From the NCBI GenBank assembly GCA_965203445.1, contig OZ241883.1, positions 928,001-992,000 of the forward strand: DNA of 64,000 nucleotides, given 5' to 3'. Positions 9,451 to 50,136 of the stretch are shown here, piece after piece (position 1 is the first letter of the stretch; the number at the start of each line of letters is the position of its first letter). The notes under the pieces were generated by a model. That model ran no database searches, was not told the origin of the DNA, and saw nothing but the letters and a program-made list of their open reading frames with translations. A program made the translations under genes and the position numbers. Source of the DNA: Candidatus Oxydemutator sp. (GTDB lineage: Bacteria > Pseudomonadota > Gammaproteobacteria > Poriferisulfidales > Oxydemutatoraceae).

Positions 9451-9531
9451 GAACCGGCGCGGAAGGGATGCGTCAGTGTATATAATTCCCATATAATTCT
9501 CACGCTATCTTTGCGAATCAGGAGGAAAGAC

Positions 9532-24992: not shown

Positions 24993-26144
24993 TCACAGAT
25001 CCGTGAGCAGGCGGTGGGCCGATACCGCGCGTATCCCGTCGGCCAGGGGGTAGGATGCGTCGCCCGCGTGCACCACGATCAGTTCCGTGAGTTCGAGGTC
25101 TTTTATCGCGTGGCGCATGGACGGCGTGACGGTCGGCGCCGTGGATAGTTTCACTTCTACGCCCAGGCGCTTCCTGCCCGATGGAACAAACACGTCGAGT
25201 TCCGCGCCCGTGTGCGTTCGCCAGTAGTAGAAATCCCGGCCCGGCCCCCGCATCTGCTCCATGATCAGCTCCACCATCAGGCCTTCCCACGAGGCGCCCC
25301 TTGCCGGATGTGCGTCGAGGGTGCCGGCGTCGCCGATGCCGAGCAGCGAATGCACGAGCCCGGCGTCCCGAATGTATATTTTCGGCGCCTTGACCTGGCG
25401 CTTGTTCAGGTTCGCAAGCCACGGCGGCAGTTGTCTGATCACCAGCGCGTCGGTGAGGACGTCCAGGTAGCGACGCACGGTGGTATCGGCGACGCCGAAC
25501 GAACGCGCGAACTCCGAGGAGTTCCAGGTCTGGCCGTGGCGGTGCGCCAGCATCGCCCAGAAGCGCCGCAGGGTCGTCCCCGGCGTGCGCACGCCGAGTT
25601 GGGCCAGATCGCGTTCGATGAACGTGCGCTTGAAACTTTCCAGCCACTCGAAGCAATCCCGGTTCGAGCGCGCGAGATAGGCGTTGGGGAAACCGCCCCG
25701 CAGCCACCGCCGTCGCAGCCGGTCGTTGCCCACTTCATCCAGCCCCAGGCCGTTCAGCTCATAGTAATGGACGCGCCCGGCCAGGGACTCGGAGGATTGC
25801 CGCGATAGATCGGGCGACGCGCTGCCCAGCACCAGAAAGCGGGCCGGTCGCGGCCTGCGGTCGGACAATACCCGCAGCAATGGGAAAAGCTCCGGCAGTC
25901 GCTGCACCTCGTCAATGATGATCAGCCCCTTGAGGTTGCGCAGCGCGAGGCTTGCGTCTTTTTTGAGGCGCGAAAAATCGGCGGGATCTTCCAGGTCGAA
26001 ATGATGGAATTGCCGGCCATAGCCGTCGGCCACCTGCCTGGCCAGCGTGGTCTTGCCGATCTGCCGCGGCCCCAGAATGGCGACGACGGCAAAGCGCTTC
26101 AGGCGCCCGATTATCTCGGCGACGTGTCTTGATCGTGTGACCAT
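24993..26144 (-). CDS. AAA_14 ATPase with DUF4143 / C-terminal nuclease-like domain
   Basis: GPRQIGKTT, IIDEVQ, SESLAGR, RGGFP, KAPKIYIRD, ELD...GVEVK. Confidence 0.9.
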   Translation of the reverse strand: MVTRSRHVAEIIGRLKRFAVVAILGPRQIGKTTLARQVADGYGRQFHHFDLEDPADFSRLKKDASLALRNLKGLIIIDEVQRLPELFPLLRVLSDRRPRPARFLVLGSASPDLSRQSSESLAGRVHYYELNGLGLDEVGNDRLRRRWLRGGFPNAYLARSNRDCFEWLESFKRTFIERDLAQLGVRTPGTTLRRFWAMLAHRHGQTWNSSEFARSFGVADTTVRRYLDVLTDALVIRQLPPWLANLNKRQVKAPKIYIRDAGLVHSLLGIGDAGTLDAHPARGASWEGLMVELIMEQMRGPGRDFYYWRTHTGAELDVFVPSGRKRLGVEVKLSTAPTVTPSMRHAIKDLELTELIVVHAGDASYPLADGIRAVSAHRLLTDL

Positions 26145-26156
26145 GGGTGCGACTAT

Positions 26157-26273
26157 ACCATGAAATCTCTGCGATAGGCGCCGAGATTTCATGGTGGGGA
26201 GAGAGCGGACGCAGGCCTGAAAAGCTTCCGGAGAACCATGAAATCTCTGCGACAGACGCCGAGATTTCATGGT
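26157..26273. repeat. Two 39-bp palindromic direct repeats 39 bp apart
   Basis: ACCATGAAATCTC-N13-GAGATTTCATGGT at 26157-26195 and 26235-26273. Confidence 0.9.
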
Positions 26274-26349
26274 AAGGGGAGGTCGGCCACGCTGCGCCCT
26301 TGCTGAATCCGCCCCGAATCCGCCCATGGTATATAATTCCAGGGCGACG

Positions 26350-41294: not shown

Positions 41295-42191
41295 TCATAG
41301 ACTCGAGTGTGCTTCGGGGCGATCTGCTCCGGCCCCCCTTCGGGTGCCTTCCATCCAGTCGAGATTGCGCCCGACAACCAATTCGGTCATTTTCGCGTGG
41401 TGGGTGTTTCTCATCGGAATCGGCTTTGCCGCCAACCCGTGCCGGGACGCCATATCTTTCACTTCGTCGGCGTTGTCGTACGTCATGATGAAATCGCCCT
41501 TCAATTTGCAGCAGTGGTCAAAAAGCAATTCGTGATCCAGATCGCAGTATTTGTACAGCCGCTTGCCGGCTTTTTTGCCGCCCGCGGTGTAGGGAGGGTC
41601 AATGAAAAAGACGGCGTCGGTCTTCCGGTATTTTTTCAGCACCTCGAAAGCGTCCGTGTTCCGGAATTGCAGGCGTTCGCGTATATGGCCAATATCGCGC
41701 AATCTTCGGGCCAGCGTGGTCGGATACCAGCGCGACGATATTCCCTTCCCCGCTTCTCCGTTTTTCAGGAGGCCGGAACCCGCCGCCAGTATCCCTCCGT
41801 GGAACGTCCTGTTTTTGATGATGGTTCTGAACGCGCGCTCTTTGTTTGTTTGCGTTTTTTTATGCAATTCCCTGAGTGCATTTTCCCTGGTCATGACAAA
41901 GTTCGCAATGCGTTTTGCAAGCCACTCGGAGTCCCCGCCGACAACGGATTTCCAGACGGCGGCGATGTCTTCGTCCAACTCGACCATCAGGGCGGCTTCG
42001 ACGAGATTCTCGAAAACGGCGGTCAGCGACACAATCCCGCCGCCGGCAAACGGTTCCACGAGCAGCCGGGGCTTGTCCGGTTGACTGCGGATCCACCGAC
42101 GCAATTCGGGCACGAACCAAGTCTTTCCGCCAGGGTACCGAAAGGGGCTGCGCTGCGGCACCGAGGCGACGTTCACGGTTTTCTGCGACAA
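41295..42191 (-). CDS. Dam/D12-class DNA adenine methyltransferase (start uncertain; lies just outside TnpB element A)
   Basis: SPFRYPGGKTW, EPFAGGG, FIDPPY. Confidence 0.85.
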   Translation of the reverse strand: MSQKTVNVASVPQRSPFRYPGGKTWFVPELRRWIRSQPDKPRLLVEPFAGGGIVSLTAVFENLVEAALMVELDEDIAAVWKSVVGGDSEWLAKRIANFVMTRENALRELHKKTQTNKERAFRTIIKNRTFHGGILAAGSGLLKNGEAGKGISSRWYPTTLARRLRDIGHIRERLQFRNTDAFEVLKKYRKTDAVFFIDPPYTAGGKKAGKRLYKYCDLDHELLFDHCCKLKGDFIMTYDNADEVKDMASRHGLAAKPIPMRNTHHAKMTELVVGRNLDWMEGTRRGAGADRPEAHSSL

Positions 42192-42248
42192 GGGGATTAG
42201 ACAGGGGATTAGACGCTGTGGAACGGCGGCTGAGGCAGTGGGATATTT

Positions 42249-43503
42249 GGGAATTATATAGAATGTTGTGCAAGGCACCGCATCCCATCCATTTGACGTT
42301 TCACAGGCCGAGTAACCTCACCACCTCCACGTCCAGCAGCCCTATTCCCGAAGGCCAGTATATTCAATGCGGCATTCACATCCGCATTGTCCCGATGACC
42401 GCAGGCGCTACACTCGAAGACCGCCTGGGTCTTTCTGTTTTCTTTATCTACGTTCCCACATTTACTGCATGTCTGACTTGTGTATGCGGGGTTCACGTAG
42501 TTCGTATCCGTCTTGTAATCCAGACACTGATGAAACTTTCCCCAACAAGACGCCAGGATCACGCGGTTCAGTCCGGTCTTTGCACGGACATTCGTTCCAG
42601 GGTTATCCTTCGTTCCCTTGGCGCTTCTTGTTAGCCCCTGGTTGTTCAATTTCTCCAGGTGCACAAGAGAGTAGTTATCGGCCACTTGCCTCGATGTGCC
42701 ATGGCACCAGTTCCGTCTGATATGACGCAACTTGGCCTGCGCTTTCTGGTGTAACGATTGCGCACGCCTCCACCGGTTCGACGCCTTGATCCCCTTCTTG
42801 CGGTTCGGCCCCTGACGCCTTGCCATCATCCTCTGAGAACGCCTGACGCGCCGCTCATGCCCTGCCATATCCGGCATACGAAATACCTTTCCATCAGAAC
42901 AGGTTACCTGACTGACGTTACGGTCTATTCCTACAGAGTACCCTACTTTCGATACTTCGGCCTGTTCCACTTCGTATGTGATATACGCGTACCACTTGCC
43001 GCATTCCCGCTTGACCGTGCCGGATTTGGGCACGCCGTCCGGATACGGATTGTGGCCAAGCAGCAGCACCTCGCCTATCCTGGCGATGTAGAGATAACGT
43101 CCGTTCAAGCGGAACGCTCCGGTGCATAACGGAAAACTATCAGGGCGGACATACTTGGCGTGAAACCTCGGCAGGCCTCCCTCTTTCTTGAGGAATTGCC
43201 TGTACGCGGTCTCTATCGGCTTCAACGCTTGGCGCACTATCGGCATGGAATACTCCTGCAACCACGTATCGTCATCCCTGCGCAATGCCGTGAACCGCTT
43301 GCCAAGAGAATAAAACCGGTAATCGCACTCGCCATCCTCGGCATACTCGTCACGCAACTTGCCCACAAAATGGTTCCACACGTAACGGCACGCACCAGCC
43401 GTGCCCGCCAACTTGCGGGCCTTGACTTGAGTTCCTGCATGAACTCTATATCGAATTGTTCGATACATTTTCATTTTCCCGCACAACATTCTATATAATT
43501 CCC
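42249..43503 (-). mobile_element. TIR-bounded TnpB-only element A (1255 bp)
   Basis: Perfect 23-bp TIR GGGAATTATATAGAATGTTGTGC at 42249-42271 and 43481-43503; no TSD visible. Confidence 0.85.
42254..43474 (-). CDS. tnpB: RNA-guided endonuclease TnpB
   Basis: CRYVWN HTH, RuvC motifs GIDRN / HLEKL / NADVNAALNI, Zn ribbon CSKC..CSAC. Confidence 0.93.
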   Translation of the reverse strand: MKMYRTIRYRVHAGTQVKARKLAGTAGACRYVWNHFVGKLRDEYAEDGECDYRFYSLGKRFTALRRDDDTWLQEYSMPIVRQALKPIETAYRQFLKKEGGLPRFHAKYVRPDSFPLCTGAFRLNGRYLYIARIGEVLLLGHNPYPDGVPKSGTVKRECGKWYAYITYEVEQAEVSKVGYSVGIDRNVSQVTCSDGKVFRMPDMAGHERRVRRSQRMMARRQGPNRKKGIKASNRWRRAQSLHQKAQAKLRHIRRNWCHGTSRQVADNYSLVHLEKLNNQGLTRSAKGTKDNPGTNVRAKTGLNRVILASCWGKFHQCLDYKTDTNYVNPAYTSQTCSKCGNVDKENRKTQAVFECSACGHRDNADVNAALNILAFGNRAAGRGGGEVTRPVKRQMDGMRCLAQHSI

Positions 43504-43580
43504 CATTATATCAGTTTGGGCGGGTTAGAAACATTGACCTGCCGAACGGCGAGTTTCAAGATGAACGGGAGAGTTGTCCC

Positions 43581-44270
43581 ATGCGTCTATCAGTAATCGT
43601 TTTGGCCTTCGCCTGCCTTGCGGGTTGTGGAGGGTCTTCGGAAAACGGCGTGCGGCACGCCAGGCCCGACTCGTTCGTGGTCGTCAACGAGACCATGCCC
43701 GCCGCCATATTCGACGTCAGGTATTATTCCGCCGACAACTTTCTCGGCACCAGGGTGCGCGGCTATGCGGCCCCTTTGTGCATCCTCGCCGAACCGGCCG
43801 CCGCGGCTTTGCGGCGGGTGCAGCAGGAGCTTGGCGCGCGCGGCTATACCGTCAAGATTTTCGATTGTTTCCGCCCGCAGCGGGCGGTGGATCACTTCGT
43901 CGCGTGGGCGCAAGATGCAAGCGATACCAAAATGAAATCAGAGTATTACCCGAACGAGGAAAAGTCCCGGCTGATAGAGAAAGGTTACATCGCCGACCGC
44001 TCGGGCCACAGCAGGGGCGGCACGGTGGATCTGACGCTGGCACGCAAGGCCGACTCGAAAGAACTGGACATGGGAACCCCTTTCGACTACTTCGACACGC
44101 TGTCCAACACGGCCGATCCGCGCATCACCGAAGACCAGAAGAACAACCGCCTGTTGCTGAAGACAACCATGGAGAAACACGGGTTCGTCAACTACGACAA
44201 AGAATGGTGGCACTACACGCTCAAGGACGAACCGTACCCGGATACGTACTTCGACTTTCCGGTCGAATGA
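43581..44270 (+). CDS. D-alanyl-D-alanine dipeptidase (M15D, VanX/DdpX-like) lipoprotein
   Basis: Lipobox LAGC, DCFRPQRA, SGHSRGGTVD, EWWHY. Confidence 0.9.
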   Translation: MRLSVIVLAFACLAGCGGSSENGVRHARPDSFVVVNETMPAAIFDVRYYSADNFLGTRVRGYAAPLCILAEPAAAALRRVQQELGARGYTVKIFDCFRPQRAVDHFVAWAQDASDTKMKSEYYPNEEKSRLIEKGYIADRSGHSRGGTVDLTLARKADSKELDMGTPFDYFDTLSNTADPRITEDQKNNRLLLKTTMEKHGFVNYDKEWWHYTLKDEPYPDTYFDFPVE

Positions 44271-44320
44271 TATTGAAGGTGGCTTGGCTGACGCGCCTAT
44301 GGCCACCTTACCCAGTTTGT

Positions 44321-44340
44321 TGTATGAGGCCAGAAACATT
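44321..44340 (+). mobile_element. Orphan IS481-like left end (20 bp)
   Basis: TGTATGAGGCCAGAAACATT. Confidence 0.6.
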
Positions 44341-44381
44341 ATTTTCTTGCATTTTGGGAGCCAAACTCCCGAAATGCAAGA

Positions 44382-45563
44382 ATGATACCGCGTCTGCTCG
44401 AAAATCAAATCCTTGACGCTCTTCGCGCGATGCCCGTGGTCGCCATCCTGGGGCCGCGCCAAGTCGGCAAAACTACGCTTGCGCTTGCGATCACCCACGA
44501 CAAAGTCGGCAAAGAAGTCCTCTATCTGGATTTGGAGCGAGATTCCGATCTGGCCAAGCTGAATGATGCCGAGGCCTATCTCAAACGGTTCGGCAACCGT
44601 CTGCTGATCATTGACGAGGTGCAGAGAAAGCCGGATTTGTTCAGGGTGTTGCGCAGCCTCATTGACGCCAGAAGGCGCGCCGGCGAGAAAGGGGGGCTTT
44701 TGTTGTTGGGTTCGGCTGCCCGCGGACTGCTCCAGCATTCCTCTGAGACACTGGCGGGTCGCATTCGTTATTTGGAGTTGAGCACTCTCTCTGCGCTGGA
44801 AATGTATCGGGCGAAGGTTCCGGGTTTTACGATGGAAAATCTGTGGCTCAGAGGCGGTTTCCCCGATGGTTGTCTGGTGGCAAACGACGATGAGAGTTGG
44901 AACTGGCGTTCTGACTTTATTGCCTCTTACGTGGAACGTGACATGGCGTTGCTGGGGCCGAAGGTCCCGGCCACGCGAATGAGGCGCTTTTGGAGCATGT
45001 TGGCTCATTGGCACGGGCAGCAGATCAATCTGTCGTCGTTGGGCAAAAGCCTTGAAGTGGATCACAAAACCATCCGATCCTACCTGGACACACTGACCGA
45101 TTTTTACATGGTCAGACAGTTGCCCCCATGGTCGGGTAACACGAGAAAACGGCTGGTCAAATCGGCCAAGGTCTATATCCGGGACAGCGGCATATTGCAC
45201 CGCCTTTTGAATATCCCGGACTATGAAACCCTGTTGGGGCATCCGGCATTGGGCGCGAGTTGGGAAGGCTTTGTGTTGGAAAACATCCTCGTCGGTTTGT
45301 CCGATAAATGGCAATCCAGCTACTACAGAACGGCGGATCGGCATGAGCTTGATCTGGTTCTGGAAGGGCCGAAACGGGAGACCTGGGCTATAGAGGTAAA
45401 ACGTTCGACGGCGCCCAAAGTAAGCAGCCTCTATCATTCTGCGTGCGCTGAGATCGGGGCAACGAGAAAGGTGGTGGTTTATCCAGGCGCGGACAGATTC
45501 CCGCTGGCTGATAACGCCGAGGCCGTCGGCCTCAACGCATTTTTGTCTGATCTGGCGCGGTAA
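44382..45563 (+). CDS. AAA_14/DUF4143 ATPase
   Basis: GPRQVGKTT, IDEVQ, SETLAGR, RGGFP, ELD...AIEVK. Confidence 0.9.
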   Translation: MIPRLLENQILDALRAMPVVAILGPRQVGKTTLALAITHDKVGKEVLYLDLERDSDLAKLNDAEAYLKRFGNRLLIIDEVQRKPDLFRVLRSLIDARRRAGEKGGLLLLGSAARGLLQHSSETLAGRIRYLELSTLSALEMYRAKVPGFTMENLWLRGGFPDGCLVANDDESWNWRSDFIASYVERDMALLGPKVPATRMRRFWSMLAHWHGQQINLSSLGKSLEVDHKTIRSYLDTLTDFYMVRQLPPWSGNTRKRLVKSAKVYIRDSGILHRLLNIPDYETLLGHPALGASWEGFVLENILVGLSDKWQSSYYRTADRHELDLVLEGPKRETWAIEVKRSTAPKVSSLYHSACAEIGATRKVVVYPGADRFPLADNAEAVGLNAFLSDLAR

Positions 45564-45569
45564 CGACCG

Positions 45570-47087
45570 TCAGGCCAGAAACAAATCGTAGCCCGGGTTG
45601 CCCGACTCGTCCTGATAGGCGTAGGGCGATTCGGCCAGCAGCGTCCTGAACCCCGCCAGTTCGCCGTCCGGCACCTGTATTCCCGCCAGCACGCGCCCGT
45701 AGGCGGCGCCGTGGTTGCGGTAGTGGAACAGGCTGATGTTCCAGCGTCGCCCGCCGATGTACTCCAGGAACTCGAGCAGCGCGCCCGGTCTTTCGGGAAA
45801 CTGAAAGCGGCACAGGCGTTCGTCGTTCAGACGCCCGGCGCGGCCGCCGATCATGTGACGCAGGTGCAGTTTCGCCATCTCGTTGTCCGACAGGTCGGCG
45901 ACCGGGTAGCCGTTGTCGTGCAACGCCGTCAGCACCGCGTCTTTGTCTTGCGCGTCGTCGAATTGCAGGCCGACGAAAATACGCGCCCGCGCCTCGTCGG
46001 CGTAGCGGTAGTTGAACTCGGTGATCGTGCGCCTGCCGATGGTGCGGCAGAAATCGAGGAAGCTGCCGGGACGTTCCGGTATCGTCACCGCGAGCAGCGA
46101 TTCGGCGCCCTCGCCGATCTCGTAGCGTTCGACGACGTGCTTCAGGCGGTCGAAGTTGATATTGGCGCCGGAGGCGATTGCGACCAGCCCGCACCCGCGC
46201 AGCCGCTCGGCACGCGCGTATTTCTTCAGGCCCGCGATGGACAGTGCGCCGGCGGGCTCGAGCAGCGCGCGCGTGTCGTCGAAGTGGTCCTTGACCGCGG
46301 CGCAGATCTCGTCGGTCGTAACCAGCACGACGTCGTCCACCGTACGCCGCGCGACGCGGAAAGTCTCGTCGCCGATGCGCCGCACCGCGGCGCCGTCGGC
46401 GAACAATCCGACTTTGTCGAGCGTCACCGGTTCGCCACGGCGCAGCGCCTCGGCCAGCGTCGGCGCGTCCTCGGGTTCGACGCCGATGACGCGCACCTCA
46501 GGGCGCGCGTGTTTCAGGTAGGACGCGACCCCGGCGATCAGGCCGCCGCCGCCGACCGGCACGAACACCGCGTGCAGGTCGTCGCCGCATTGCCGGTGAA
46601 TCTCCTTGCCGACCGAACCCTGCCCCGCGATCACGTCGGCGTCGTCGTACGGATGGACGAAGGTCAGCGCGCGTTCGGCGGCGAGTTGCAATGCGTGCTC
46701 GCAGGCCTGATCGTAGGTGTCGCCGTGTTGGACGATGTCCGCGCCCAACAAGCGCACGGCCTCGACCTTGATACGCGGCGTCGTGCGCGGCATCACGATC
46801 AGCGCGCGTATGCCGAGCTGGCGCGCCGCCAGCGCCACGCCCTGCGCGTGGTTGCCGGCGGAGGCGGCGATGACGCCGGCGTGCTGCTCGCGTTGCGACA
46901 GGTGCGCGATCTTGTTATAGGCGCCGCGCAGCTTGAACGAGAACACCGGCTGCAAGTCCTCGCGCTTCAGGCGCACGTCGCAGCCGAGGCGCGCGCTCAG
47001 CTTGGGCGCCGCCTCCAGCGGCGTTACCCGCGCGACGTCATAGACCTTGCAGGCGTCTATCGCCCGGATGTAGTCGTAGGGGGGCAT
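45570..47087 (-). CDS. ilvA: Biosynthetic threonine ammonia-lyase
   Basis: KREDLQPVFSFKLRGAYNK, SAGNHAQG, two ACT-like domains (PERPG). Confidence 0.96.
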   Translation of the reverse strand: MPPYDYIRAIDACKVYDVARVTPLEAAPKLSARLGCDVRLKREDLQPVFSFKLRGAYNKIAHLSQREQHAGVIAASAGNHAQGVALAARQLGIRALIVMPRTTPRIKVEAVRLLGADIVQHGDTYDQACEHALQLAAERALTFVHPYDDADVIAGQGSVGKEIHRQCGDDLHAVFVPVGGGGLIAGVASYLKHARPEVRVIGVEPEDAPTLAEALRRGEPVTLDKVGLFADGAAVRRIGDETFRVARRTVDDVVLVTTDEICAAVKDHFDDTRALLEPAGALSIAGLKKYARAERLRGCGLVAIASGANINFDRLKHVVERYEIGEGAESLLAVTIPERPGSFLDFCRTIGRRTITEFNYRYADEARARIFVGLQFDDAQDKDAVLTALHDNGYPVADLSDNEMAKLHLRHMIGGRAGRLNDERLCRFQFPERPGALLEFLEYIGGRRWNISLFHYRNHGAAYGRVLAGIQVPDGELAGFRTLLAESPYAYQDESGNPGYDLFLA

Positions 47088-47160
47088 CGGTTTTTCAGCG
47101 AGAGTCTGAGAAAACATAAGGGAATTATATATCTAAATCTACAGAATAGTGGTGAAGTAC

Positions 47161-47188
47161 TTGATTTTCTATAGGAATATGGTATGAT
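47161..47188 (+). promoter_or_regulatory. Sigma70-like promoter for tnpB in element B
   Basis: TTGATT-16 nt-TATGAT with extended -10 TG, 8 nt before the ATG. Confidence 0.55.
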
Positions 47189-47196
47189 GTTTTGTG

Positions 47197-48426
47197 ATGA
47201 AAGTCCATAGAACAATCCGGTATAGGTTGCATCCCGGTACGCAGGCCAAAGCCCGCAAGTTGGCGGGATTGGCGGGGGCGTGCAGGTTCGTATGGAATCA
47301 TTTCGTAGGGAAGTTAAGGGACGAGTATCTGGCATATGGATGCTGTAAGCCTTGGTATTTTACATTGGGCAAGCAGTTCACTCTGTTACGTCGCCACTGT
47401 GAACCCTGGTTGCAGGAATACTCGGCCAACATAGTAAAGGCATCTTTGAAACAGTTGGAAACGACGTACAAGCAGTTTTATAAGAAAGAGGGCGGATTGC
47501 CGAGGTTCCATGCAAAATATATGCATCCCGATAGTTTTCCCTTGGTGACGGGGACGTTCCATCTGAAAGGCCGTTACTTGCACATCGCCAAGATAGGCGA
47601 GGTGCTGTTGCTTGGCCACTATCCCTATCCGGGCGGCGTGCCGAAGTCCGGCACGGTCAAGCGGGAATGCGGCAGGTGGTATGCGTATATCACGTATGAA
47701 GTGGAACAATCCGAAGCATTGAAACCTGTAAGAGAAGTCGGCATAGACCGCAACGTCGGTCAGGTAACATTATCCGACGGGACGATGTATCGTATGCCGG
47801 ATACGGCAAAACATGAACGTCGCGTCAGGCGTTATCAGAAGAAGATGGCTAGGCGACAGGGGCCGAACCGCAAGAAAGGGATCAAGGCGTCGAACCGGTG
47901 GAAGCGCGCACAGTTGCTTTATCAGAAGGCACAGGCCACGTTGCGACACGTCAGACAGAATTGGTGCCATGGCGTATCGAGGGAAGTGGCCGATAAATAC
48001 TCCCTTGTGCACCTGGAGCAGTTGAACAATCAAGGGATGACAAGAAGCGCCAAGGGAACAAAGGAGGAACCCGGAACCAACGTTCGCGCGAAGAGCGGCT
48101 TGAACCGCGTGATCCTGGCGTCATGCTGGGGCAAGTTTCACCAGTGCCTGGACTACAAGACGAATACGAATTACATAAACCCCGCATACACAAGTCAGAC
48201 ATGCAATAAATGCGGGCACATTGACAAGAACAACAGAAAGACTCAGGCGGTATTTATCTGTACCGCTTGCGGTCATCGGGATAACGCGGATGTTAATGCC
48301 GCGTTGAATATACTGGCCTTCGGGAATGGGGCTACTGGACGTGGAGGTGATGACGTTAGTCGGCCTGTGAAGCGTCAAATGGATACCAGAAATCAACAAG
48401 AAAGTCTTGTAGATTTAGGTATATAA
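47197..48426 (+). CDS. tnpB: RNA-guided endonuclease TnpB
   Basis: GIDRN / HLEQL / NADVNAALNI, CNKC..CTAC; close paralog of 42254-43474. Confidence 0.93.
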   Translation: MKVHRTIRYRLHPGTQAKARKLAGLAGACRFVWNHFVGKLRDEYLAYGCCKPWYFTLGKQFTLLRRHCEPWLQEYSANIVKASLKQLETTYKQFYKKEGGLPRFHAKYMHPDSFPLVTGTFHLKGRYLHIAKIGEVLLLGHYPYPGGVPKSGTVKRECGRWYAYITYEVEQSEALKPVREVGIDRNVGQVTLSDGTMYRMPDTAKHERRVRRYQKKMARRQGPNRKKGIKASNRWKRAQLLYQKAQATLRHVRQNWCHGVSREVADKYSLVHLEQLNNQGMTRSAKGTKEEPGTNVRAKSGLNRVILASCWGKFHQCLDYKTNTNYINPAYTSQTCNKCGHIDKNNRKTQAVFICTACGHRDNADVNAALNILAFGNGATGRGGDDVSRPVKRQMDTRNQQESLVDLGI

Positions 48427-48675
48427 TTCCCAAACATAATACTGTAAAGGCCTTATATTTAAGTGCCGGGCTTTCCTCGGTTACTCTGGTATCCCCCGTC
48501 ATCCTCCGCGAAAGTGGGAACTTTAGTCTGGCCATTCTCGCCCCCGAACCTTCGCGGGCTATTTCCGATTGTTTTTAAGCCATTGATATAGAATTATTAT
48601 TTACGAATTTATTCAATAAGCAAAGTGAACTTCTCTTATATTGACTTTTCTTGGACTATCCACAGAATTGCTCCC

Positions 48676-50136
48676 GTGGAACTGATTCCCGCAGAGCAGT
48701 ACCGGGAGCGCATTTGCGCCGAAAATCCATGGTGGGATGAGGCGTCTCCTGGTACCGACAAAGCATTTCGGGATATGCGCCCGCGTGCCTATCTCGATTC
48801 CTTTGCCAAATTGGTGGAGGCAAGGGACGTGCGTCGCGCCGTCGTGCTGATGGGGCCGCGTCGCGTCGGCAAGACTGTTTTGCTGCAACACGTGATTCAG
48901 CGCTTGTTGGACGACGGTGTCCCGTCGCAAGCTATTGCCTACTTATCGTTGGACCAGCCCTTGTATGCCAACCGCTCCATTGAGGAACTCGTCGGCCATG
49001 CTCAAGGAGGTGGCACGCCGCCGAGCTCGCAACCGACTTTCCCGTCGTTGCGTGAAATCCAGTATCTGTTCCTGGATGAAATACAGTACCTGCGCGAATG
49101 GGAGCGTCATCTCAAGATATTCGTCGACGACCACCCGCGCATCAAATGCGTCGTTTCCGGGTCGGCGGCCGCGGCTCTGCGTTTGAAGAGCATCGAGTCC
49201 GGCACCGGACGCTTTACCGATTTTCTTCTGCCGCCACTGACGTTCTACGAGTTTATGGATTTACAGGGTATGGGCGACGTCGTCGTGCGCGAACGGCAGG
49301 GATGGTTTTGCGCGGACATTGACGCCCTCAACGAGCACTTCGTTCGCTACGTCAACATGGGCGGCTACCCTGAGGTGATTTTCTCCGAGAGTATTCGGAA
49401 AGACGTGAGACGCTACGTTCGCAGCGACATCATAGACAAGGTATTGCTGCGCGACTTGCCGAGCCTCTATGGCATCCGCGACATCCAGGATCTCAATTCG
49501 CTGTTTATGACCCTTGCCTGGCACACGGCGCAGGAAGTATCGTTGCAGGGGTTGTCGCAACATTCCGGTGTTTCCAGCCCGACGATCAAGAATTATCTGG
49601 AGTACCTGGAGGCCGCTTTCCTGATCAGGATAGTCCATCGTATTGATCGCAACGCCAAGCATTTCAAACGCGCCAATTACTTCAAGGTGCATTTGACCAC
49701 CCCGTCCATGCGCAGTGCTCTTTTCGGCCCGATAGAATCGAACGGCCGGGACATGGGCGCGCTGGTGGAAACGGCGATATTCTCGCAGTGGTTTCATGCG
49801 GACCTGGAGTTGCGTTACGCGCGTTGGCAGAGCGGCGAAGTTGACATCGTCTGTTTGGACGAGCGCTACAAGCCTCGCTGGTGCGTGGAAGTCAAATGGT
49901 CTGACTCCGTTGTTTCCCGGCCCCGCAAGACGACTCCTATCCGGTCTTTTCTCAAGACCCATCCCGGCGTCGAGGCCGCGTTCACGACGCGCTCGATGGA
50001 GGGAAAGTTGTCGCTTGCGCCGAACGTGACGGTGGATTGTCTGCCCGCGAGCGTTTATTGTTACTTGGCGGGTTTCCACGCCGTCGGCGACCGCTCGCGC
50101 GACCTGGTGTTGGGGGTGCGCGAAGGAACCCGCTGA
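48676..50136 (+). CDS. AAA_14/DUF4143-like ATPase (ENPWW subtype)
   Basis: GPRRVGKT, FLDEIQY, ESGTGRF, GGYPE, EVD...VEVKWSD. Confidence 0.85.
   Translation: MELIPAEQYRERICAENPWWDEASPGTDKAFRDMRPRAYLDSFAKLVEARDVRRAVVLMGPRRVGKTVLLQHVIQRLLDDGVPSQAIAYLSLDQPLYANRSIEELVGHAQGGGTPPSSQPTFPSLREIQYLFLDEIQYLREWERHLKIFVDDHPRIKCVVSGSAAAALRLKSIESGTGRFTDFLLPPLTFYEFMDLQGMGDVVVRERQGWFCADIDALNEHFVRYVNMGGYPEVIFSESIRKDVRRYVRSDIIDKVLLRDLPSLYGIRDIQDLNSLFMTLAWHTAQEVSLQGLSQHSGVSSPTIKNYLEYLEAAFLIRIVHRIDRNAKHFKRANYFKVHLTTPSMRSALFGPIESNGRDMGALVETAIFSQWFHADLELRYARWQSGEVDIVCLDERYKPRWCVEVKWSDSVVSRPRKTTPIRSFLKTHPGVEAAFTTRSMEGKLSLAPNVTVDCLPASVYCYLAGFHAVGDRSRDLVLGVREGTR

What the first reader, a model, noticed from the sequence alone, without database searches (positions are those of the whole stretch)
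42249..43503. Second TIR-TnpB element with the same 12-bp terminus but a different, self-matched inner TIR
Seen: a perfect 23-bp TIR GGGAATTATATAGAATGTTGTGC on both sides of a closely related, intact tnpB. Only the outer 12 bp match element B. The inner 11-12 bp differ between A and B yet match within each element. The ATG is only 29 bp from the end, leaving little room for an IS605 left-end hairpin. Flanks (GGATATTT / CATTATAT) do not form a TSD. Inference: this is a diversified family rather than one accident, with left and right ends kept concerted. The missing TSD suggests an adjacent deletion or recombination, possibly removing the partner of the neighbouring Dam-like MTase.
Basis: partly seen in the sequence, partly recalled or inferred. 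Interest (0 to 1): 0.8.

Follow-up and report, generated by a model that had tools for sequence, protein, structure and literature searches.

The report
TnpB gene riding an IS1595-type transposon
This 1.25-kb element carries only an RNA-guided nuclease gene (tnpB), but it has the inverted ends of a cut-and-paste IS1595 transposon, so it most likely moves by borrowing a transposase encoded elsewhere, a rarely described partnership for TnpB in bacteria.

Summary
Window 42249-43503 is a 1255-bp unit with a perfect 23-bp terminal inverted repeat (TIR) around an intact tnpB. It has no target-site duplication (TSD).

It is not an IS200/IS605 element. The genome holds 16 such TIR pairs, 9 of them with perfect 8-bp TSDs, and has no Y1 TnpA. 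Its single IS1595-family DDE transposase sits in a 2616-bp IS with the same 12-bp tips and an 8-bp TSD. The same TIR-TnpB design recurs in other sponge-associated MAGs of several phyla. Autonomous IS1595 relatives there carry matching inner TIRs.

Contigs of related strains skip exactly 42249-43503 and hold 17 other bases instead. So A is a discrete insertion and no gene was lost beside the Dam-like methylase.

The last ~155 nt behave like an omega-RNA: synonymous sites are frozen, stems covary, and a terminal hairpin uses the inner TIR as its 3' arm. A purine lies just upstream of the TSD on the tnpB 5' side only (41 of 42 sites). This looks like a TAM.

DDE-associated and solo TnpBs with inverted ends are published (Altae-Tran 2023), but IS1595 is not named in the texts I could read. 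This scan noted the same kind earlier on other DNA.

The parts
42249..43503 (-). Element A: a 1255-bp transposase-less TIR element carrying tnpB. The tnpB 5' end (LE) is at 43503 and the 3' end (RE) at 42249.
   Evidence: TIR. Exact presence/absence boundaries come from contigs of runs X3 and X5.
43481..43503 (-). LE terminal inverted repeat, 23 bp. The outer 12 bp (43492-43503) are family-wide and the inner 11 bp are specific to A.
42249..42271 (-). RE terminal inverted repeat, 23 bp, with the outer 12 bp at 42249-42260. The tnpB stop codon TAA (42254-42256) lies inside it.
42254..43474 (-). tnpB coding sequence, 406 aa from the ATG at 43474. The listed ORF starts at an in-frame ATG at 43489 inside the TIR. 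RuvC D189/E279/D370 and four zinc-finger Cys are present.
42249..42403 (-). Omega-RNA-like scaffold (inferred). It comprises the conserved 117 nt at 42287-42403, predicted stems from about 42355, a terminal hairpin and the 12-nt tip.
   Evidence: DNA-only conservation in relatives. Covarying stems. Synonymous-site constraint rising to 0.74-0.89. No Rfam match. No RNA data.
42261..42285 (-). RE terminal hairpin. Its 3' arm is the inner TIR.
   Evidence: A has dG -9.0 and z -1.4. Across the family 23 of 39 have z below -1.5, and the stem sequences differ between TIR types.
42229..42248 (-). Predicted guide template: the 20 nt of flank next to the RE. It is unique in the genome.
   Evidence: Inference from TnpB biology. 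Uniqueness.
47120..48431 (+). Element B: a 1312-bp TIR-TnpB element of another TIR type, with the 8-bp TSD AAACATAA at 47112-47119 and 48432-48439.
41295..42200 (-). Context: D12-class (Dam-like) N6-adenine methyltransferase gene. The start codon is not settled.
43581..44270 (+). Context: D-Ala-D-Ala dipeptidase (Peptidase_M15, ddpX-like).

Best explanation
Element A is a non-autonomous member of an IS1595-family group of DDE, TIR-bearing transposons that make 8-bp TSDs. In it the transposase gene is absent and the only cargo is tnpB with its overlapping omega-RNA.

Such elements are moved in trans by IS1595-family transposases. Those transposases are encoded by separate insertion sequences that carry the same 12-bp tips and a lineage-specific inner TIR. 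That explains why the two ends of each element match each other: both must fit the same transposase.

The inner TIR at the tnpB 3' end also forms the 3' arm of the last omega-RNA hairpin. The guide is then read from the flank, that is the TSD plus downstream DNA. Insertions that persist have a purine-ending, TAM-like motif just upstream of the TSD. TnpB could therefore cut the unoccupied allele and favour retention or homing.

Shown: anatomy, family, TSDs, the partner transposase, presence/absence polymorphism, intact catalytic residues, and RNA-level constraint. Inferred: trans-mobilisation, omega-RNA expression, where the guide begins, and the TAM.

A itself is an odd copy. It is the sole member of its TIR type, no cognate transposase is in this genome, and it inserted with loss of 17 bp of target instead of a duplication.
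For: - TIR pairs in the genome: 16, of which 9 have perfect 8-bp TSDs, 2 have 7/8 and 1 has 6/8.
- All 13 full-length tnpB copies lie in such pairs. Twelve are; the thirteenth, at 1431141, has a composite left end.
- The genome has exactly one PF12762 hit. It is a 314-aa protein with DDE_Tnp_IS1595 (1.3e-43), Zn_ribbon_IS1595 and NF033547 (206 bits against a cut-off of 75). It sits in a 2616-bp IS with tips GGGAATTATATACTTAAATCTACAAA and TSD ATCAGAAA.
- No Y1 TnpA in a genome rated 100% complete.
- Two copies at different sites are identical at 1370 of 1371 bases, which indicates recent transposition.
- Other genomes: 26 of 30 loci and 52 of 80 loci have the same TIR geometry. 32 of 62 unique sites have perfect TSDs.
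- 5 of 5 other genomes tested hold IS1595 transposases.
- In one of those genomes, two autonomous ISs carry the inner TIRs of that genome's own TIR-TnpB elements.
- Related strains lack exactly 42249-43503.
- 61 of 65 elements keep an ORF of at least 370 aa.
- D, E, D and four Cys are invariant in 15 sequences.
- Omega-RNA: 5 of 15 predicted pairs have compensatory changes. Codon identity given the same residue rises from 0.32-0.49 in the gene body to 0.74-0.89 in the last ~20 codons. The terminal hairpin is preserved although its sequence is unrelated between TIR types.
- TAM-like signal: a purine at -1 of the LE-side TSD in 41 of 42 sites (binomial 2e-11). It is not mirrored at +1 on the other side (pyrimidine 18 of 42). 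It is absent from 10 autonomous IS sites (4 of 10; Fisher 7e-5).
Against: - A has no TSD (4 of 8), and its inner TIR has no cognate transposase or second copy in this genome or in the collections scanned.
- No element among the 65 examined carries both transposase and tnpB, so linkage to IS1595 rests on shared ends and TSDs.
- No RNA run was available, so omega-RNA expression, its 3' end and the guide are untested.
- No Rfam family matches.
- No sigma-70-like promoter was found for A's tnpB.
- The autonomous-IS control for the flank asymmetry is small (10-11 sites) and comes mostly from one other genome.
- The hairpin of A itself is only marginally better than shuffles (z -1.4).
Confidence: 0.8

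Rival explanations
1. A classical IS200/IS605 (IS1341-type) TnpB-only element moved as single-stranded DNA by a Y1 TnpA. On this view the terminal repeat is incidental.
For: TnpB is normally carried by IS200/IS605 or IS607 elements (passages read in PMC13565253). NCBIfam IS200_TnpB matches at 143 bits, below its cut-off of 425. There is a hairpin near the 3' end.
Against: No Y1 TnpA in a complete genome. Perfect TIRs and 8-bp TSDs, which that family does not make (passage). Only 29 bp lie upstream of the ATG.
Confidence: 0.02
2. The elements are mobile, but through TnpB itself or an unrecognised enzyme. On this view the IS1595-like tips reflect convergence or a shared promoter-like TATATAAT motif rather than transposase recognition.
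For: A has no cognate transposase in the genome. Solo TATATAATTCC motifs lie just upstream of ordinary genes at window 9479 and 26330. The flank asymmetry follows the orientation of tnpB.
Against: Identical tips and identical TSD length in the resident IS1595 element and in autonomous ISs of other genomes, with inner TIRs matching within a genome. An RNA-guided nuclease is not known to produce 8-bp duplications (established knowledge). 5 of 5 genomes with these elements hold IS1595 transposases.
Confidence: 0.05
3. For copy A only: it did not arrive by transposition. It came by homologous recombination with DNA from a diverged strain, or by capture at a double-strand break. That would explain why 17 bp are replaced and no TSD exists, and A would now be immobile.
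For: No TSD. 17 unrelated bases stand at the empty site in strains roughly 90-99% alike. A is the only copy of its TIR type.
Against: The boundaries coincide to the base with the TIR tips, as expected of a transposase-cut element. The TIRs are perfect over 23 bp. Aberrant DDE insertions with small target deletions are a simpler variant (inference).
Confidence: 0.15
4. The TnpBs are domesticated, for example as nuclease-dead RNA-guided regulators, and the repeats are regulatory palindromes.
For: Both ends carry an outward-facing TATATAAT next to host genes.
Against: The RuvC D/E/D triad and zinc finger are invariant. There are multiple recent copies with different TSDs. The element is present or absent between strains.
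Confidence: 0.03

Closest known systems
DDE-transposase-associated TnpB branches (DDE-1 to DDE-6) and solo TnpBs with the same ends (Altae-Tran et al. 2023, PNAS, PMC10691335; section 9 read in full, plus other passages)
   Same: TnpB sits inside transposons with inverted terminal repeats. The TnpB 3' end lies close to a transposon end. Solo TnpBs are flanked by ends like those of transposase-bearing elements and are proposed to be mobilised in trans.
   Different: The main text names IS630. A 2026 review (PMC13565253, passages read) lists ISL2, IS630 and IS1031. IS1595 occurs in neither main text. Here no copy carries a transposase. The guide would begin with a variable 8-bp TSD. The inner TIR doubles as an omega-RNA hairpin arm. 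There is a one-sided flank signal. The supplements that list the branches could not be opened.
IS1595-family insertion sequences with passenger genes and their transposase-less derivatives (Siguier et al. 2009; recalled, not read)
   Same: DDE_Tnp_IS1595 transposase with an N-terminal zinc ribbon, TIRs starting GG, 8-bp TSDs and passenger genes. The resident IS carries a methylase-HNH fusion.
   Different: Here the cargo is an RNA-guided nuclease with its own RNA that overlaps the transposon end. My recalled match of the tips to the ISNwi1-group consensus (ggnnatTAT) was not tested against any database.
IS200/IS605 family, IS1341 group (TnpB-only elements)
   Same: tnpB is the only gene. A structured RNA overlaps the 3' end of tnpB and runs to the element end.
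   Different: That family has no TIRs and makes no TSDs, and it needs a Y1 TnpA (passage in PMC13565253). All three points fail here.
Fanzor1 and Fanzor2* in eukaryotic and viral cut-and-paste transposons (Yoon et al. 2023, NAR, PMC10711439; passages read)
   Same: Non-autonomous TIR/TSD elements that encode only the nuclease. [quoted passage not shown]
   Different: Those are eukaryotic or viral, with short fixed TSDs absorbed into the scaffold. Here the hosts are bacteria and the TSD is a variable 8 bp, which is more likely the first part of the guide.

Membership tests
TnpB (OMEGA RNA-guided nuclease) | Family profile match above the curated cut-off | tested here: met
   NF040570 guided_TnpB at 210 bits against a cut-off of 100. 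Three Pfam domains above their cut-offs.
TnpB (OMEGA RNA-guided nuclease) | RuvC D-E-D triad and CxxC...CxxC zinc finger | tested here: met
   D189, E279, D370, C341, C344, C360 and C363 are invariant in 15 sequences.
TnpB (OMEGA RNA-guided nuclease) | Omega-RNA overlapping the 3' end of the gene and reaching the element end, with the guide read from the flank | tested here: inconclusive
   Covarying stems, synonymous constraint and a terminal hairpin support it. There is no Rfam match and no RNA data.
TnpB (OMEGA RNA-guided nuclease) | TAM-dependent, RNA-guided DNA cleavage | not testable with these tools
   Only an indirect flank signal is available.
IS1595 family (as a non-autonomous derivative) | DDE_Tnp_IS1595 transposase with zinc ribbon encoded in the element | tested here: not met
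   A encodes only tnpB. The transposase lies in a separate 2616-bp IS with the same tips.
IS1595 family (as a non-autonomous derivative) | Terminal inverted repeats shared with transposase-bearing members | tested here: met
   The outer 12 bp are identical to the resident IS. The same TIR type occurs on autonomous ISs in other genomes.
IS1595 family (as a non-autonomous derivative) | 8-bp target-site duplication | tested here: not met
   For A itself 4 of 8 match, and 17 bp of target are replaced. For the family it is met: 9 of 16 pairs in this genome and 32 of 62 unique sites overall are perfect.
IS1595 family (as a non-autonomous derivative) | Mobilisation by an IS1595 transposase | not testable with these tools
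   Inferred from shared ends, TSDs and near-identical copies at different sites.
IS200/IS605 family | Y1 (HUH) TnpA available in the genome | tested here: not met
   PF01797: no match in a genome rated 100% complete. The control search found it in 6 of 14 genomes.
IS200/IS605 family | No TIRs and no TSD; asymmetric ends with subterminal hairpins | tested here: not met
   23-bp perfect TIR. 8-bp TSDs across the family.
DDE-associated TnpB branches of Altae-Tran 2023 | Inverted terminal repeats, with the TnpB 3' end within 250 bp of an end | tested here: met
   The stop codon lies 5 bp from the tip.
DDE-associated TnpB branches of Altae-Tran 2023 | Placement in one of the clades DDE-1 to DDE-6 | not testable with these tools

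The most novel reading that the evidence does not exclude
TnpB and its omega-RNA are functionally integrated with a TSD-making DDE transposon. The transposase-binding inner TIR is at the same time the last hairpin arm of the guide RNA. The guide starts with the 8-bp TSD. Only insertions that land with a purine-ending TAM immediately upstream of the TSD persist, because TnpB can then cut the unoccupied allele and drive retention or homing. That would be natural evidence that OMEGA 'restorative homing' works with cut-and-paste DDE elements in bacteria. It would also show that nuclease cassettes are reshuffled among IS1595 end types within a genome.
Probability: 0.4. Interest if true: 0.7.

Novelty: new variant of a known kind. 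Interest (0 to 1): 0.55.

Why it matters
TnpB is the ancestor of Cas12. Its accepted role is to keep IS200/IS605 and IS607 elements from being lost after scarless excision. Reviews treat its link to DDE cut-and-paste transposons in prokaryotes as rare and unexplained (PMC13565253, passages read).

This family offers dozens of natural, recently active insertions. For each, the ends, duplications, empty sites and partner transposases can be read directly. Four things become testable:
- how a guide RNA is built across a TIR;
- whether a variable TSD can serve as the start of the guide;
- whether a TAM filters which DDE insertions survive;
- how one short sequence serves both a transposase and an RNA fold.

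The family also gives a compact set of about 400-aa nucleases with intact catalytic residues for TAM and activity screens.

Tried and rejected
- Rfam scan of window 41800-48800 at E up to 1: no family.
- RNA evidence: no RNA holder listed. All runs laid were DNA-type contigs.
- Empty site in relatives by DNA search of 30 related genomes: too diverged. Only tnpB and dam pieces matched. The empty site came from sequencing-run contigs instead.
- Partner flanks for A: no end flanked by the expected 8-mers. The one near-match, at window 9484, is a terminus-like tandem with a different inner sequence.
- Other A-type ends: an exact 19-mer scan gave 0 hits in genome contigs. It gave 3 hits in metagenome contigs, none with the GGGA tip and none with TnpB or transposase homology.
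- Sigma-70 promoter scan of 42100-43700: 0 sites. The idea that the outward TATATAAT tips act as promoters therefore stays unsupported.
- ISNwi1 subgroup: public names say only 'IS1595 family transposase'. A paper search for ISNwi1 gave 2 unrelated papers.
- Paper search for IS1595 plus TnpB: 9 papers. None is on this topic by title and abstract start; the one I opened merely lists both names.
- Paper search for TnpB, sponge, symbiont and transposase: 4 papers hold all the terms (3 listed), none relevant.
- Single-linkage TIR typing chained 36 of 61 elements into one group. I therefore read the tree by the printed inner TIRs and did not use the label-change count as evidence.

Full report
**1. 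The observation**

The window at 42249-43503 holds a perfect 23-bp terminal inverted repeat, GGGAATTATATAGAATGTTGTGC and its reverse complement. The repeat does not extend past base 23 on the inner side or beyond the tips on the outer side. The 12-base tip occurs 6 times in the window at up to one mismatch, against 0.03 expected.

A second element, B (47120-48431), shares only these 12 bases. Its own inner arms match each other at all but one position.

The enclosed minus-strand ORF is an intact TnpB (Pfam and NCBIfam above their cut-offs). Alignment with 14 relatives puts its start at the ATG at 43474, 29 bp from the tip. The stop codon TAA lies inside the other repeat.

A's flanks match at 4 of 8 positions, so it has no duplication.

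**2. The family in this genome**

The window lies in a single 2.38-Mb contig of 63.6% G+C. The tip occurs 25 times exactly.

Pairing tips that face each other gave 16 elements:
- 9 have perfect 8-bp duplications, 2 have 7/8 and 1 has 6/8.
- 12 carry a full-length tnpB.
- 3 are short derivatives of 163, 180 and 786 bp.
- 1 is 2616 bp long.

A thirteenth full-length tnpB, at 1431141, has a composite left end.

The 2616-bp element has the same tips and the duplication ATCAGAAA. It encodes a 314-aa IS1595-family transposase (PF12762 1.3e-43, zinc ribbon, NF033547 at 206 bits) and a methylase-HNH fusion as passenger. It is the only PF12762 hit in the genome. No Y1 TnpA was found in a genome rated 100% complete.

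Two tnpB elements at different sites are identical at 1370 of 1371 bases, so the family moved recently.

**3. The family elsewhere**

Relatives of the TnpB (36-59% identity) come from sponge-associated and other MAGs. These are labelled Ca. Porisulfidus, other Gammaproteobacteria, Thermodesulfobacteriota, Opitutales, Arenicellales and Latescibacteria.

The same tip and geometry flank 26 of 30 loci and 52 of 80 loci (the two sets overlap). Of 62 unique insertion sites, 32 have perfect 8-bp duplications and 42 have at least 7/8.

All 5 other genomes tested hold IS1595-family transposases. Where ends could be found, these autonomous ISs of 1.28-1.32 kb have the same tip type and 8-bp duplications. 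In one genome, two of them carry the inner repeats of that genome's own TnpB elements: CTATTCTGCACA and GTTAACTTGACAA. No element with both genes was seen among the 65 examined.

**4. Why the ends are self-matched**

Over 61 elements the inner repeat (bases 13-24) is 87% identical within an element. Between elements with 50-70% identical TnpBs it is 47%. The outer 12 bases stay 84-90% identical throughout. The simplest reading is that the outer part is family-wide and the inner part fits a particular transposase lineage, so both ends must carry it.

The ends do not simply co-diverge with TnpB. All 13 TnpBs of this genome form one clade (support 99). Yet they sit on at least eight end types. 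Two end types (CTTTAATCCGTGAG and the ..AAATCTACA.. type) occur in both of its subclades, whose TnpBs are only about 60% identical. Similar mixing is seen in other genomes.

Either tnpB bodies are homogenised within a genome by gene conversion, or cassettes are moved between end types. The copy at 1431141 has two tandem left tips of different types, the outer one matching its right end. That looks like a snapshot of such a replacement. This paragraph is inference from the tree and the sequences.

**5. The RNA**

Rfam finds nothing. Three lines of evidence nonetheless point to a functional RNA in the last ~155 nt:
- **Conservation limited to this stretch.** In related genomes, many DNA matches cover only window 42287-42403, at 78-88% identity. 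The rest of the gene is not detectable at DNA level in those rows.
- **Covarying stems.** A consensus fold of 27 sequences gives three stems. 5 of 15 pairs keep pairing through changes on both sides.
- **Frozen synonymous sites.** Among 1592 pairs of TnpBs under 70% identical, the chance of an identical codon given an identical residue is 0.32-0.49 along the body. It rises to 0.57, 0.74 and 0.89 in the last three 20-column alignment blocks (A residues 376-405).

Between this conserved part and the 12-base tip lies a hairpin. Its 3' arm is the inner repeat and its 5' arm is a nearby copy of it. The stem sequence differs completely between end types, often with G.U pairs that work only in the sense transcript. 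23 of 39 are more stable than shuffles at z below -1.5; A itself has z -1.4.

By analogy with known TnpB RNAs, the guide would be read from the flank. No RNA run holds this DNA, so expression is untested.

**6. A one-sided flank signal**

I oriented elements by tnpB. The base just upstream of the duplicated 8-mer on the 5' side is a purine in 41 of 42 unique sites (binomial 2e-11). T is commonest at -2 (20 of 42) and A at -3 (25 of 42).

The mirror position on the other side is not constrained (pyrimidine 18 of 42). The first set of 27 sites gave 27 of 27.

Ten autonomous ISs with perfect duplications show 4 of 10 purines (Fisher 7e-5). A looser set shows 4 of 11. This control is small and comes mostly from one genome.

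In an unoccupied site, this position directly precedes the sequence that the flank-derived guide would match. That is where a TAM must lie. In the empty allele of A, the bases before the guide match are ..GTG. I read this as a TAM-like filter on which insertions persist. It is inference.

**7. Copy A and its neighbours**

Contigs from two other studies (runs X3 and X5, pieces 90-99% alike) join 42248 to 43504. They skip exactly the 1255 bases and hold 17 other letters, CACGCTGTACTCTGTTA. X3 also holds a second, slightly different version.

So A is a discrete insertion bounded by its tips. It replaced 17 bp of target instead of duplicating 8. The Dam-like methylase and the D-Ala-D-Ala dipeptidase genes are neighbours without it, and no gene was lost.

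No reciprocal flank exists in the genome. No other A-type end was found by exact 19-mer scans. The resident transposase's inner repeat differs from A's, so A may be stranded here.

**8. What is known**

The PNAS 2023 survey (PMC10691335) reports six DDE-associated TnpB branches, all with inverted terminal repeats. It also reports solo TnpBs with the same ends, probably mobilised in trans. It names IS630.

A 2026 review (PMC13565253, passages read) lists ISL2, IS630 and IS1031 and calls the association rare.

A search for IS1595 plus TnpB gave 9 papers, none on this topic by title and abstract start.

For eukaryotic Fanzors, TIRs are predicted to be part of the guide-RNA scaffold (PMC10711439, passages read).

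This scan has noted TnpB on IS1595-type ends on other genomes before, one note with a one-sided G. Those are unchecked AI notes. I reached my reading before seeing them.

**9. Verdict**

The element is a transposase-less IS1595-type transposon whose cargo is TnpB with its RNA. The kind is known, but the IS1595 chassis is, as far as I could check, undescribed. So are the dual use of the inner repeat, the reshuffling of end types and the TAM-like asymmetry.

Noticed in passing
window 47084-47131: Element B sits 2 bp upstream of the listed start of a threonine dehydratase ORF (45570-47117, minus strand). Its TSD AAACATAA includes that ATG, and the outward-facing TATATAAT of the tip lies just upstream. 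The insertion may have replaced the gene's native upstream region. A second in-frame ATG lies about 30 nt downstream.
   Followed up: partly
window 9479-9500 and 26330-26341: Solo tip-like motifs (TATATAATTCCC and TATATAATTCCA) lie directly upstream of ordinary genes; the one at 9479 precedes a ParA/MinD-like ORF. At 9479 the motif is followed by a near tandem copy, ATATAATTCTC. These are either solo-end remnants or promoter-like sequences.
   Followed up: no
L012 516-1826 (own genome 1978565-1979875): The only IS1595 transposase-bearing element in the genome carries a 436-aa passenger protein that fuses an N6/N4 DNA methylase to a C-terminal HNH nuclease domain.
   Followed up: partly
own genome 1431141-1432433: This TnpB element has two tandem left tips of different TIR types. 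The outer one matches its right end. It may be a snapshot of end replacement.
   Followed up: partly
own genome 113341-113503, 757576-757755, 247602-248387: Short derivatives of 163, 180 and 786 bp carry the same tips. The 180-bp and 786-bp ones keep tnpB fragments. None has a clean TSD.
   Followed up: no
window 26156-26286: Two copies, 78 bp apart, of a 40-nt palindromic unit (ACCATGAAATCTCTGCGA...GAGATTTCATGGT) that looks like a REP element.
   Followed up: no
window 44382-45563 and 25675-25932: An AAA_14/DUF4143 ATPase gene between elements A and B shows 60-nt (73% complementary) and 33-nt (76%) inverted-repeat matches to window 25675-25932, which suggests a diverged paralogue there.
   Followed up: no
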